Source: Bispira polyomma
Taxonomy: Eukaryota
Direction: 5' to 3'
Assembly: GCA_965649765.1 (NCBI GenBank)
Contig: OZ287753.1
Span: 69,874,001 to 69,938,000 of the forward strand
Length of the DNA: 64,000 bases
How positions within the stretch are numbered: position 1 is the stretch's first letter; every line of letters begins with the position of its first letter. Made by a program: the position numbers and the translations under genes. The notes under the pieces are model-generated. The model saw only the letters and a program-made list of their open reading frames with translations. It was not told the origin of the DNA and searched no databases. Positions 35,391-42,496 of this stretch are shown one piece after another.

Positions 35391-35822
35391 ATGCCTGGGG
35401 GAGATCTATCCGGGGGTACTTCCGTGTACCCCACCCTGCCCAATCCAGCACAGTTCGGCAGTTCCAGCATGTTCTTCAACAACAACCCTTATAACGGCAA
35501 CAGCAGTACCAATAGCACCAGCAATTATAGCAACAACACTGGGAACAGCTTTAACAATAATAATAATAGCTATGAGATTAACAACGTCAATGCACTGAAC
35601 ACGGTGAATTCACTGCAGTCCTCCCTGAGTGGACTGCAATCTCTGGGATTACTAAACACGGATGGATCCACCACCGTCAATAATAACAATAATAACCTAA
35701 GGATCCTCAATGAGTCCATCCAATCTCTGGATCTCTGGAGCAAGGGGCAGCAACAGCAACAAAACCCTACACTGAGTGATGTCTGGAGTTCTTTGTCCCA
35801 CTCTCCAACCCAGGCTTGTCAG
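35391..35822 (+). CDS. ZCCHC24: ZCCHC24 coding exon 1 (Asn/Ser-rich N-terminus, 144 codons)
   Basis: ATG at 35391, open frame, CAG|gtcagt donor, phase 0 fits the next exon; assignment by position and frame. Confidence 0.8.
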
Positions 35823-35878
35823 GTCAGTGGATTAAAAGTATATGCATGGTTTATGTCTGTCTGTGTCTGATCTTGTAA

Positions 35879-36318
35879 GTGAGCATTTCCATGAAGGCAA
35901 CTTTCTGAGGTGATCAGGTGACAGCCGATTCTATCAGTTACATTGATTTTAAACCAAGTGTTTCCATGTGAGCAACGCGGATAGGCGACAGGCAATGCCA
36001 GGTGATTTTTTCGGTACTAGGAGCGAAAAAGAATCGCCTGGCATTGCCTGTCGCCTTGTAAACATTGCCGATGTTTTAAAAATAACTCAGAAATAACTAA
36101 AGGTATAAATTTCAGAAAAATATGTTGAGAAAGCTTATTTTATTGAGTATATTGTGCTTTTTGTTGCATCAAAATCGGTTGAGAAATGGCTAAAATATTC
36201 AAGTTTAAATACAGGTACGTATTTTTCTCAAATAATGGTACAGAAATATAAAAATTGAAAATTACCCATTGGACGTCGGCTGGTCGCCTCAGAAAGTTGC
36301 CTGCATGGAAACGCTCAC
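35879..36318. mobile_element. PIF/Harbinger-type MITE in ZCCHC24 intron 1
   Basis: About 40-bp TIR gtgagcatttccatg..ggcaactttctgagg, TAA/TTA flanks, internal palindrome aggcgacaggcaatgccagg. Confidence 0.85.
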
Positions 36319-37344
36319 TTAGAGTTCTTTGTCTTCCATTGAGGTTCCATTGGATTGAAAGTATGGTTTCGTTACTTTTGTTCTGGGATCTGTGTGCTCG
36401 AATTGTCCCACTACCAAATCCAGGCTTGTTAGGTGGGTGGATTTAAAGTATTGTTTACTCATGTTCCCTTGACTGAGTTTTCTGGGGTTTTTTTGCTGCC
36501 ATCAGTGACAGATCGATATCATCTATCCATTTAGTCTGTGGTTATATATTCATTATTACAAATAGCCATACACAATATCATAACTTATGGCCAACTTAAA
36601 ACTACTTGATTAATTGAATATAACTATTTGACAATATTGATGTATATTTCCCGTTGAAAAGAACATAATAAACTGCCATGTCAGATTTGTTGAGTTCAGG
36701 AAAAACATAACTGTTTTAGCAGCAGATAACTCTGTCTAGGTTTATGTCTGTCTGATCTGCGCAGGGTGTACAGTTCTTTGTTCCACTATCAAACCCAGGC
36801 TTGTTGGGTCAGTAGCTATTAGTATTGTTTACACATGTTCCCTAGACTGAGTTTTTTTAGGGTTTTTTTGTTGCTATCAGTGACAGATCGGTAACCTTAA
36901 AAGCAAAACTTCTACACCTGTGGGTGATTCATGTGCATAGACATTGTTCTTTGTCCCACTACTCAACCCAGGCTTGTCAGGTCAGTGGCTTTAAGTGTGG
37001 TTTACGCCTGTCTGTGATCTTTGTGAACTGCAAATTCTTTGTGTGGCTCTCTTGTAACGTCAGTGGCTTTAGCTATTGTTTGTACCCGTCCAAAATCTGT
37101 GTGGATGGACTAGTTATTTGTCCCACTCCCCAAGTTGGGAACTAGACCTATTCATACTCACCCCCTACCCTTGTGCTTACTGTATGAATGGAAGTTAATC
37201 GTACAGTTAACCACACAGATAGCAAATAATTGATTTTCGTCATTCCTGTCTGCATAATATCCATGTCCAAGCATAAAGTCCTTGCATCAATGTTGAGTCT
37301 TTGCTTCAATGTTTTGTAAAACTGTTTTATCAACACAAAATCCA

Positions 37345-38546
37345 TTATTGTATCCACTGATCTGGTTTAGCGTTTGCTACGCCGCCGCGGAGAGATTTTC
37401 GCCGTTAACACTCTCAGCGGAAAACTAGACTAGCTTGCTTCACCAGATTTGACCTTGGGCCGCTCCATCAAGGTCAGACGAGGGTACTTAAAACTTAAAA
37501 GTGCTTATAACTCGCTTATTATTGGTCCTACAGTTTTAAGATGTAAAACCAACCTATAGGAAATCATGGGCTGGGAGTCTTCTGATTGGGCAGGTTTGAC
37601 CTTGGGCCCCTCCTTCAAGCTCAGACAAGGGTAGTTAAATTTAAAAGTGCTTATAACTCGCTTATTATTGGTCCTACAGGTTTCCAATATAAAACCAACT
37701 TATAGGTAATCATGGGCTAAAGGTCAAGACACACACAGCCGAATCCGGATGCGGATCCGGATTGCTGATCTGGTTGGACATCATGGACACTGTAGGGGGA
37801 CACACTGAGCCGGATGCGGATCTATAGATCCCACCCGAATTGTTTTTACACGCATTTTTTTTTCTAAATCCACCACGGATATATTCAGCGGATTTCCAAA
37901 AACAAGTGTATTTTTGGAGAAATTTGAGATTTTAGGTTTGTTTAAATTGTTTTTGGCTTGTTGGGGCCTGCCGAAATTTACTGTTTTGACAGTCAGTTAA
38001 ATAAATACATATAGTCAGTGAAAAAAAGTAGTGACAGTTGTTTAACATATTTTTTTTTCTGGTAGTGTAATGTATCCTTAATATCTATGTTTACACACAG
38101 TATGCAAGTTTAAGTGTGTTTTTATATCAGTTATAGGTTTTAACATAAATAACAAATGCACATACCTTGAAAGAGGTAAATAAGAAGAAGATATTAAATC
38201 TACTGACAGACTATCCTTGATGATATGTATATTTTCATCATTTTTGCAGTAAATTTACACAGAAAAAAACATATTCATTACTCATGATCCGGTCGAATTA
38301 TTTGTCTCAGTGTGGCTGCAAAAAAGATAAATCCCATATGGGATTTCAATCCCATTCCGAAATAAAATCCGGATGCGGCTGTGTGTGTTTAGACCTTAAG
38401 AATCCTTTGATATGGTCAGATTTGACCTTGGGCCCCTCCTTCAAGGTCGGACGAGGTCAGCCATAGCTTGGGTGCTTCCTACCTAGGGTGCTCTGTCTTT
38501 CTGGTGGATACAAATATGCATCGATTCTACGATGCGCTAGGTCTAG
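37345..38546 (+). mobile_element. Second HINE family, carrying a nested MITE
   Basis: subTIR ttgtatccac / gtggatacaa, (gcc)n, internal tttgaccttgggccc repeats, 3' hairpin gcatcg-attcta-cgatgc, CTAG then T-run. Confidence 0.8.
37721..38396. mobile_element. Harbinger-type MITE nested in the HINE
   Basis: TIR aggtcaagacacacacagccg / cggctgtgtgtgtttagacct, TAA TSD on both sides. Confidence 0.85.
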
Positions 38547-39354
38547 TTTTTTTTTCAAACTAATCCTGTCTTAAATATTGATGTACTATAGTCAATTTTC
38601 CTTTTTGGAAAAGATCTGTAGTTCTAGACTGGCCGTTTAATATAAAATGTACGTTTTTTAGTGGAAATCCTGCTTAGGCAGAGGTAATTCTTCTGGTCTC
38701 GTTAACTGTTGACAATACTTATAATAATTGTAAACTATAATCATACCAAAATGCACCTACTAAGCTGTTAAAACTGGTATTTTGAAAGTCACTATATTAT
38801 ATGATCCAGACACTATTGTGAAAACTGTGTACGAGAAATAACATGTAACTACAACTAGGGGCCTTTAGTGACAGTATTGTTTTATTGAAATGGCTATGAT
38901 GTTAAACTATGTGTAGCTAAAGGTTTGTCTTTCATGATTCTGTCATAAGTATAGGAAATCCAGCTATCCATGTAAAAAGGCAGAAAGTTGAGTATAACGT
39001 GTGTGTAATGATAGTATGTACATGTACTTGGCCTATCGGTAAACAAGTACACCTGTGTACTATACTAGCAAAAACGGTCTAAGTAGTAGCATTTGATTGA
39101 TGATTCCAGAGTAATGCATATCTGAGGAGTGAAGGGAGTGGATAAACTGTGTATACCTTGCATACATGTATATCTAGCTAAACTTCAGTTTTTCTGCTCT
39201 TATGTCCCCCCCCCAATTGATAGCTTCAGTTTTCAGCTGATATGTGATAAAAGCATCTTTTGTTTGGTAATGAATTACTTGTGTTATCTGCATAATGTTG
39301 AATTTTAAAATTTGAGATTGGATGGCATAGAAATGAAATATGGTCTGAACATCA

Positions 39355-41437: not shown

Positions 41438-41560
41438 CTGGACAAGTTTGGTGAACTAAGTTTACAAGACCGCAGGGCTATAAGTAGAAAGGTGCCGCCC
41501 AAGGGCTACATGTGTCACTCGTGCTGGAAACTAGGACACTGGATCAAGGACTGTCCAGAG
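41438..41560 (+). CDS. ZCCHC24: ZCCHC24 exon 3, CCHC zinc knuckle (PPKGYMCHSCWKLGHWIKDCPE)
   Basis: ttctag / gtaaga boundaries; CxxCxxxGHxxxxC motif. Confidence 0.95.
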
Positions 41561-41826
41561 GTAAGATTTCTGCCGCTCGGTAATTTAATGTGTTTGTCTG
41601 TTTGGGATATTGATATTAGAGGCAGGTTGGTGGTTATGGGATTTTCTTCTCTGCACTGTGTAATGTATAAGTTGATGTTTGCATTTGCGCTGCTTGCAGA
41701 TGCAGTGTGCAGGTGAAGTGCTGGCAGTTATATTTCAGAGGCATATTTCAGAGGCAGATAAGACACGCAAACCTTCTTATATCTGGTTGAATTTTTAAAT
41801 GTTTGACTGATGGAAGTGCTAGAATA

Positions 41827-42063
41827 CAGTGAAACCCCTTTAAGTAGTCGTTTTCTCTTTTATGTGGAGAAAAATTTGTAGTCCCATGTACAAAGACCTT
41901 CTTTGAAGTGGAATCTGAAGGGACCATAAAAATTGTTATATTTAACGGATTTTCTAATTGACAAGGTAAATTACAATTAGAAATATAGCAACGGGACCTT
42001 AAAATTACTTCTGTTTAACAGGTAATTCCACTTACTAGAGTTCTACTTGAAGGGGTTTGACTG
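41827..42063. mobile_element. Tc1/pogo-type MITE in ZCCHC24 intron 3
   Basis: TA-CAGTGAAACCCCTT...AAGGGGTTTGACTG-TA. Confidence 0.8.
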
Positions 42064-42159
42064 TACATCGAAGGTCACAACATGGGATTTTAACTTTGGC
42101 GTTGAAGAATTTACCCTTGGGTGTTTTATACTTACTTTAATGACTCCCTTTTTTGTTAG

Positions 42160-42324
42160 GGTCGACCAAAGGGGGATGGCCTCACTCCATACCAGGGCAA
42201 GAAGCGATGTTTCGGGGAATATAAATGTCCAAAGTGTAAGAGGAAGTGGATGTCTGGAAACAGCTGGTCAAATATGGGCCAAGAATGCATCAAGTGTCAC
42301 ATTAATGTCTTCCCACATAAACAG
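42160..42324 (+). CDS. ZCCHC24: ZCCHC24 exon 4, 3CxxC zinc domain ([55 protein letters not shown])
   Basis: gttag / gtgagt boundaries; near-identical to the recalled vertebrate ZCCHC24 segment. Confidence 0.97.
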
Positions 42325-42496
42325 GTGAGTCAAGTGGAATGCATCAAGTGTCACATTGATGTCTTGCCACATAAACGGGTGAGACAAGTGGAATACATAC
42401 ATTAATGTCTTCCCACATAAACAGGTGAGACAAATGGAATGCATCAAGTTTCACATTAATGTCTTCCCACATAAACAGGTGAGCCAAGTGGAATGC
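42283..42496 (+). repeat. 54-bp tandem repeat, 4 copies, spanning the ZCCHC24 exon 4 donor
   Basis: gaatgcatcaagtgtcacattaatgtcttcccacataaacag|gtgagtcaagtg repeated; copy 3 is 46 bp. Confidence 0.96.

What the first reader, a model, noticed from the sequence alone, without database searches (positions are those of the whole stretch)
35786..42496. Tandem duplications repeatedly seeded on splice junctions (junction echoes)
Seen: three ZCCHC24 splice sites (exon 1 donor, exon 2 acceptor, exon 4 donor) and one CNOT3 donor (6748) each lie in a tandem array whose unit includes the junction and extends into the intron. Units are unrelated (about 90, 22, 54 and 30 bp) and differ in divergence. Inference: 4 of about 38 coding junctions seems high for chance, which suggests a mutational process centred on splice sites (R-loop, spliceosome-associated or RNA-templated repair). 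Selection alone could also explain it, because junction-spanning duplications leave one intact exon. Either way it would generate new alternative splice sites. This is the best candidate here for an under-described process.
Basis: partly seen in the sequence, partly recalled or inferred. Interest (0 to 1): 0.7.

Follow-up and report, generated by a model that had tools for sequence, protein, structure and literature searches.

The report
Splice-junction mirage repeats, tenfold enriched
In this animal genome about one coding exon edge in eight has been copied into the neighbouring intron, a repeat type already known from lancelets and a few human genes, but here roughly ten times more often than random placement predicts, which likely reflects a mutation bias at exon edges whose trigger is still untested.

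Summary
The four arrays are real. Only the exon 4 donor array is a clean tandem array; the exon 1 copies are interrupted, the exon 2 overlap is marginal and the CNOT3 array is degenerate. They match the known amphioxus 'mirages' and human junction minisatellites, and the scan noted them before in this and other genomes.

New here is the measured enrichment. In 16 dynein genes, 61 of 543 donors and 70 of 543 acceptors carry an echo, against about 3.6% of intron positions; 14 of 96 HECT-ligase junctions do too. Head-to-tail arrays number 76 on junctions and 51 purely intronic, with 4.8 expected on junctions (7.3 GC-matched). Position-based nulls give only 2-5 fold, and the strictest cut 1.2-2.9 fold.

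Outer breakpoints peak 20-40 nt inside the exon. Copies decay neutrally, keep GT/AG, and none is a spliced copy. Slower divergence (about 1.2 fold) and deletion shielding (about 2 fold) look too small to explain this, so a mutational bias is likely. Stop codons show a weaker excess (3 of 124, 0.67 expected), so a spliceosome-specific trigger is unproven. No RNA was available; alternative splicing is untested.

The parts
35391..35822 (+). ZCCHC24 coding exon 1 (ATG to donor, GT at 35823)
   Evidence: open 305-aa model; start codon inferred
35787..35868 (+). source unit of the exon 1 donor echo (about 36 nt exon + intron start)
36403..37133 (+). four degenerate, interrupted copies of the exon 1 donor unit (starting 36403, 36772, 36946, 37112); donor-like sites at 36433, 36808, 36981
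   Evidence: contig 36667-37412 matches with 0 differences
35910..36321 (.). high-copy insert (MITE-like, limits approximate) between the source unit and the first copy
   Evidence: contig depth in the tens of thousands and loose ends at 36321; class inferred
40132..40281 (+). 22-bp array abutting and marginally overlapping the exon 2 acceptor (AG at 40272); one spare AG at 40195
   Evidence: contig 39840-40853 spans it with 0 differences
40273..40353 (+). ZCCHC24 exon 2
   Evidence: frame and splice signals only
41438..41560 (+). ZCCHC24 exon 3 (zinc knuckle)
   Evidence: Pfam PF13696
42160..42324 (+). ZCCHC24 exon 4 (3CxxC zinc ribbon)
   Evidence: Pfam PF17180
42283..42497 (+). 54-bp donor array, about 4 copies (42 nt exon + 12 nt intron); pseudo-donors at 42379, 42425, 42479
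42726..42839 (+). ZCCHC24 last coding exon with stop
   Evidence: Pfam PF23490
6651..6748 (+). CNOT3 exon whose donor (GT at 6749) is echoed
   Evidence: donor chosen by 4 of 6 homolog spliced alignments
6736..6920 (+). old, degenerate 29-bp array including about 13 nt of the CNOT3 exon end
   Evidence: 0 of 500 shuffles; lag-29 identity 0.53

Best explanation
These are 'mirage'-type repeats: short DNA duplications that span a coding exon edge and decay as neutral copies in the adjacent intron, and they likely arise far more often at coding-exon edges than inside introns through error-prone DNA repair that would not need the spliceosome. Steps: (1) shown: units of about 25-150 bp with the outer breakpoint mostly 20-40 nt inside the exon are 10-16 fold over-represented at event level. 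(2) inferred: the bias is in the birth rate, most likely when a break is repaired by one-sided homologous copying that starts in a conserved exon, runs into a structurally polymorphic intron and is closed by end-joining. (3) from established minisatellite biology: slippage or unequal exchange expands two copies into arrays. (4) inferred from the pattern: selection removes duplications inside exons, those covering a whole exon and acceptor units too short to carry their own branch point and pyrimidine tract; the outermost copy remains the working splice site.
For: Donors 61/543 and acceptors 70/543 echoed on the intron side, 0 and 1 on the other side, null 3.5-3.7%; HECT genes 14/96 vs 4.1%. 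Events: 76 junction vs 51 intronic arrays, 4.8 expected; at 95% identity or more 29 vs 9, 0.8 expected; gene bootstrap 9-25 fold, GC-matched expectation 7.3. Outer edges per 100 kb: 104, 175, 51, 21, 1 going into the exon; 43, 9, 12, 7, 5 going into the intron. Divergence is 5.9% at codon positions 1-2, 13.8% at position 3 and 14.0% in the intron part, so copies are neutral and anchoring slows unit divergence only about 1.2 fold (the ratio is my arithmetic). No unit covers a whole exon (0 of 120); the intron part is 17 nt at donors and 34 nt at acceptors (P = 1.5e-4). Stop codons carry the same multi-copy arrays, 3 of 124 vs 0.67 expected, P = 0.03. Break repair giving 10-1000 bp tandem duplications is described for rice (passage in PMC7407515).
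Against: The trigger in step 2 was not tested; no second haplotype or polymorphism data. Stop codons are echoed about three times less than splice junctions (4/124 vs 131/1086, P = 0.001; housekeeping-type 3/67, P = 0.07), which fits a splicing-linked component as well as selection on 3' UTRs. Position-based ratios are smaller: 2.5-3.9 fold GC-matched, and at the strictest young cut 1.2 fold (P = 0.10-0.19) unless junction arrays are removed from the null (2.2-2.9 fold). Rates differ among genes, from 0/78 to 17/82 (P = 2e-5), unexplained. C1q and trypsin genes show few echoes at either boundary (1/14 called acceptors, 1/57 stops). No breakpoint dinucleotide motif, and microhomology was not resolvable.
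Confidence: 0.5

Rival explanations
1. Splicing- or transcription-coupled mutagenesis: polymerase pausing, R-loops or spliceosome assembly at splice sites cause germline lesions repaired as tandem duplications.
For: Breakpoints peak sharply within 40 nt of junctions. The intron part of the unit matches the footprints of donor (17 nt) and acceptor (34 nt) signals. Junctions are echoed about 3 times more than stop codons.
Against: Stop-codon arrays of the same form exist above expectation. No real spliced echo at 365 introns. The donor/acceptor asymmetry is also predicted by selection. The peak lies inside the exon, not on the splice signal.
Confidence: 0.25
2. Survival only: duplications arise uniformly, but junction-anchored ones last longer because one copy is conserved and cannot be deleted, and GC-richer DNA duplicates more.
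For: The functional copy is constrained. The intronic duplication rate rises with GC. The most conservative position-based null leaves only 1.2-2.5 fold. Intronic arrays are somewhat denser near exons.
Against: Measured effects are small: divergence about 1.2 fold, GC about 1.5 fold (4.8 to 7.3), distance gradient about 2 fold beyond 30 nt, against 16 fold at event level; the excess is larger among young arrays (29 vs 0.8).
Confidence: 0.15
3. Functional role: the spare splice sites are kept for alternative splicing or as backups, or the arrays are intermediates of intron gain.
For: Most nearest copies keep GT (46/51) or AG (60/69) and about a quarter score higher than the real site. Intron birth by duplication is demonstrated in print (abstract of PMC3265369) and proposed for mirages.
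Against: Copies diverge like neutral DNA. Unit length is a multiple of 3 in only 35 of 126. No family spans both ends of an intron (0 of 126). Within genes, echo introns share positions with paralogs as often as others (OR 1.23, P = 0.61; the unadjusted test showed a deficit, 41/122 vs 199/420, P = 0.007). Pseudo-sites are silent in F7.
Confidence: 0.06

Closest known systems
Amphioxus 'mirages' (Adh3, globins BflGb6 and BflGb9, troponin C, PGBD5); passages read in PMC3087553 and PMC3902484; the original Adh3 paper was not held
   Same: Minisatellite-like tandem duplications spanning 5' or 3' exon-intron boundaries, unrelated units of 10-160 bp, many copies keeping AG/GT, 81-100% identity; mechanism called unclear.
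   Different: Those are single-gene reports. Here a rate (about 12% of junctions), nulls, a breakpoint profile and stop-codon counterparts are measured in a different phylum (probably a bivalve mollusc; inferred). Length polymorphism, somatic instability and normal splicing were not tested here.
Human junction minisatellites: F7 IVS7 37-bp VNTR, also IFI6 (6-16), CBS intron 13, LMNB2, PDGF; passages read in PMC1557585
   Same: The first unit spans a donor, so identical pseudo-donors follow the real one.
   Different: Human cases are a handful of donors; here acceptors are as frequent, and 123 of 543 introns carry at least one echo.
Intron gain by tandem or segmental duplication (PMC3265369 abstract; PMC2812944 passages)
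   Same: Local duplication of sequence carrying splice signals.
   Different: Here units contain real intron sequence, sit at existing introns and never span both intron ends.

Membership tests
amphioxus-type mirage minisatellite | terminal unit spans an exon-intron boundary and copies extend into the intron | tested here: met
   marginal for the exon 2 acceptor
amphioxus-type mirage minisatellite | head-to-tail, minisatellite-sized units (10-160 bp) | tested here: met
   exon 4 donor (54 bp), exon 2 acceptor (22 bp), CNOT3 (29 bp) and 76 dynein arrays of 26-151 bp; the exon 1 donor copies are now interrupted
amphioxus-type mirage minisatellite | both 5' and 3' boundaries affected; many copies retain GT/AG | tested here: met
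amphioxus-type mirage minisatellite | normal splicing is not disturbed | not testable with these tools
   no RNA holder listed; open reading frames only
amphioxus-type mirage minisatellite | allelic or somatic copy-number instability | tested here: inconclusive
   short contigs of at most two samples show no alternative joint at the exon 4 array but cannot span it
intron gain by tandem duplication | the intron itself is made of the duplicated exonic unit | tested here: not met
   0 of 126 families span both ends; mean exonic fraction of units 0.44
tandem exon duplication | unit contains a whole exon with both splice sites | tested here: not met
   0 of 120
mRNA-templated insertion | copies contain spliced exon-exon junctions | tested here: not met
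   2 hits among 365 introns, both the junction's own exon end

The most novel reading that the evidence does not exclude
A germline mutational hotspot sits on the outer 20-40 nt of coding exons in this lineage, raising the birth rate of short tandem duplications 20-30 fold over intron interiors, driven either by co-transcriptional splicing or by recombination at the edge of exon homology islands; it seeds most intronic minisatellites (76 of 127 head-to-tail arrays in the sampled introns) and explains mirages across polymorphic marine invertebrates.
Probability: 0.5. Interest if true: 0.75.

Novelty: new member of a known kind. Interest (0 to 1): 0.57.

Why it matters
Mirages were reported gene by gene and their origin was left open. 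A rate, nulls and a breakpoint profile make that question testable: if the bias is mutational, gene architecture steers where structural mutations arise, most intronic minisatellites in these genes start at exon edges, and unseen duplications inside exons add a hidden load. Practically, about one intron in four (123 of 543) carries decoy exon ends that can mislead spliced alignment, primer design and exome capture. Ten literature searches returned no genome-scale quantification, but the library lacks most subscription papers and the original mirage paper.

Tried and rejected
No RNA holder listed, so expression and splicing were not examined. TRF at default settings missed two of the four arrays, so I used my own diagonal-echo tests. 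Assembly artefact rejected: copies differ with a codon-position pattern and DNA contigs match the arrays (these runs may be the assembly's own sample). Transposon origin rejected: junction families are 1% covered by words shared among loci (only about 0.9 Mb sampled). Exon GC, exon CpG count and gene CpG o/e did not predict echoes; GC3 did not either, while non-repeat intron GC did (rho 0.77; the per-gene counts in that call merged introns echoed at both ends, corrected). No breakpoint motif, and microhomology of 21 two-copy events was uninformative. A lenient search for older echoes added few (65 and 80 of 483). Stop-codon set: 140 stops kept after dropping those without a family C-terminal signature, then 124 after collapsing near-identical paralogs; three dynein and two window stops had no echo above threshold and were not in the 124. 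Myosin, aldehyde dehydrogenase and intronless USP hits were not used for counts. Other animal genomes could not be searched. No supplementary files were read; those of PMC3087553 hold mirage alignments that may bear on the comparison.
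Full report
Setting. The window lies on a chromosome-scale contig of a 1.04-Gb AT-rich animal genome, probably a bivalve mollusc: a dynein fragment is 93% identical to a Mytilus protein and C1q domains give at least 150 matches. This is an inference. The window holds CNOT3 (homolog spliced alignments) and ZCCHC24 (five coding exons, 305 aa, Pfam PF13696, PF17180 and PF23490).

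Observation. The exon 4 donor array is a clean 54-bp, four-copy array supported by DNA contigs. The exon 1 donor has four degenerate copies spread over 1.3 kb and interrupted by a high-copy insert. The 22-bp array at the exon 2 acceptor is real but shares only a few exon bases (3 of 500 shuffles). The CNOT3 array is old but beats all 500 shuffles. My strict test passes 2 of 36 window junctions, so the window cannot establish enrichment by itself.

Genome-scale test. I fetched 50 kb from each of 16 of about 20 dynein heavy-chain loci and mapped introns with my own protein-to-genome aligner, using homologs. This gave 543 confident introns; 359 of the 365 first-round introns were recovered unchanged. 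An echo is a copy within 1.5 kb that spans the junction with at least 8 bits on each side and 25 in all. Donors: 61 of 543 downstream, 0 upstream. Acceptors: 70 of 543 upstream, 1 downstream. Intron positions lying in a terminal unit: 3.7% and 3.5% (P = 3e-14 and 9e-21). HECT ligases replicate this: 14 of 96 junctions against 4.1% (junction calls there rest on more distant homologs).

Size of the effect depends on the null. Position-based and GC-matched, it is 2.5 fold when far ends of junction arrays stay in the null and 3.9 fold when they are removed (118 of 1085); for lags up to 150 it is 2.8-5.0 fold. For near-identical copies it is 2.0-4.3 fold, and at the strictest cut 1.2 fold (not significant) to 2.9 fold. 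Counting head-to-tail arrays of period 25-200 as events gives 76 on junctions and 51 purely intronic in 523 kb, with 4.8 expected on junctions under uniform placement; at 95% identity or more, 29 against 9 with 0.8 expected. A bootstrap over genes gives 9-25 fold and GC matching raises the expectation to 7.3. I take the event count as the better measure of births, because irregular multi-copy arrays inflate the position null, but that is a judgement.

Anatomy. Outer breakpoints per 100 kb are 104, 175, 51, 21 and 1 at 5-20, 20-40, 40-60, 60-100 and 100-200 nt inside the exon, and 43, 9, 12, 7 and 5 at 0-30, 30-100, 100-200, 200-400 and over 400 nt into the intron. No unit covers a whole exon (0 of 120) and 35 of 126 periods are multiples of three. 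The intron part is 17 nt at donors and 34 nt at acceptors. Nearest copies differ from the working junction by 5.9% at codon positions 1-2, 13.8% at position 3 and 14.0% in the intron part, as expected if copies are neutral and only the real exon is constrained. GT and AG are not purged (46 of 51, 60 of 69). No real spliced echo was found at 365 introns.

Selection or mutation. Purifying selection can remove duplications from exons, but cannot lift junctions above the intronic rate unless anchored arrays live longer. Slower divergence gives about 1.2 fold (my arithmetic), composition about 1.5 fold and shielding from deletions about 2 fold. Together that is well short of 16 fold, and the excess is larger among young arrays. 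A higher birth rate at exon edges is therefore likely. This is inference from one genome, not a measurement of mutations.

Is it the splice site? Stop codons end a coding sequence without splicing. Of 124 non-redundant stops, 4 carry an echo, 3 as head-to-tail arrays starting 20-64 nt inside the coding sequence, against 0.67 expected (P = 0.03). That is lower than at junctions (P = 0.001 overall, 0.07 for housekeeping-type families), and 3' flanks are not enriched in duplications. Coding edges in general seem prone, with either extra selection in 3' UTRs or an added splicing-linked component. I favour a DNA-repair trigger at the edge of conserved exons (0.5) over splicing coupling (0.25) and survival only (0.15). 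The one-sided invasion step is my proposal; print support extends only to break repair yielding short tandem duplications (passage in PMC7407515). Gene-to-gene variation (0 of 78 to 17 of 82, P = 2e-5) is unexplained.

Known relatives. Notes from this scan pointed me to amphioxus mirages, which I checked in passages of PMC3087553 and PMC3902484; the original paper was not held. Human F7-type junction minisatellites were read in passages of PMC1557585, internal tandem repeats at boundaries in passages of PMC2812944, and intron birth by duplication in the abstract of PMC3265369. Other papers were seen only as search listings. The structure is a member of the mirage kind on every feature I could test. 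Intron gain, whole-exon duplication and mRNA-templated insertion fail their tests. The scan has noted mirages in urchin, annelid and chondrichthyan windows and in PAICS of this genome; those notes are unchecked and are not counted as support.

Verdict. A known kind of repeat, with a strong and, in my ten searches, unreported genome-scale enrichment that makes its origin testable. Interest 0.57.

Noticed in passing
G000 C3:185071, C7:142428, C8:257363, C11:124045, C13:183272, C15:182953; C5:33.17-33.30 Mb; C6:48.60-48.73 Mb (L264-L283): About 27 similar, apparently intronless USP-domain ORFs, many near contig ends and some in tandem units of 41-44 kb; probably carried by a large mobile or subtelomeric element.
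   Followed up: no
L101, L126, L127, L146: Multi-copy arrays whose first unit spans a stop codon, the non-splicing counterpart of mirages.
   Followed up: yes
L131-L136: Six near-identical HECT ligase gene ends on five contigs (C1, C3, C9, C11, C13), likely recent segmental or mobile duplicates.
   Followed up: no
window 12647-13742 and 52360-52600: 142-bp tandem repeat in a CNOT3 intron; a second repeat with the same period lies at 52.4 kb (relatedness not checked).
   Followed up: no
window 7851-8266, 15833-16145, 20204-20319: Three more arrays begin or end 37-76 nt from CNOT3 junctions without clearly spanning them; the 15.8-kb unit contains a donor-like word and may be an older echo.
   Followed up: partly
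window 37444-38540: Very high-copy element with a 146-bp internal repeat in ZCCHC24 intron 1 (contig depth above 250,000).
   Followed up: no
16 dynein loci (L014-L093): Echo rate per gene correlates with GC of non-repeat intron DNA (rho 0.77) but not with GC3, possibly because decayed exon copies raise intron GC.
   Followed up: partly
window 40132-40260: The 22-bp unit repeats a branch-point-like word before the exon 2 acceptor (motif recalled, not from a call).
   Followed up: no
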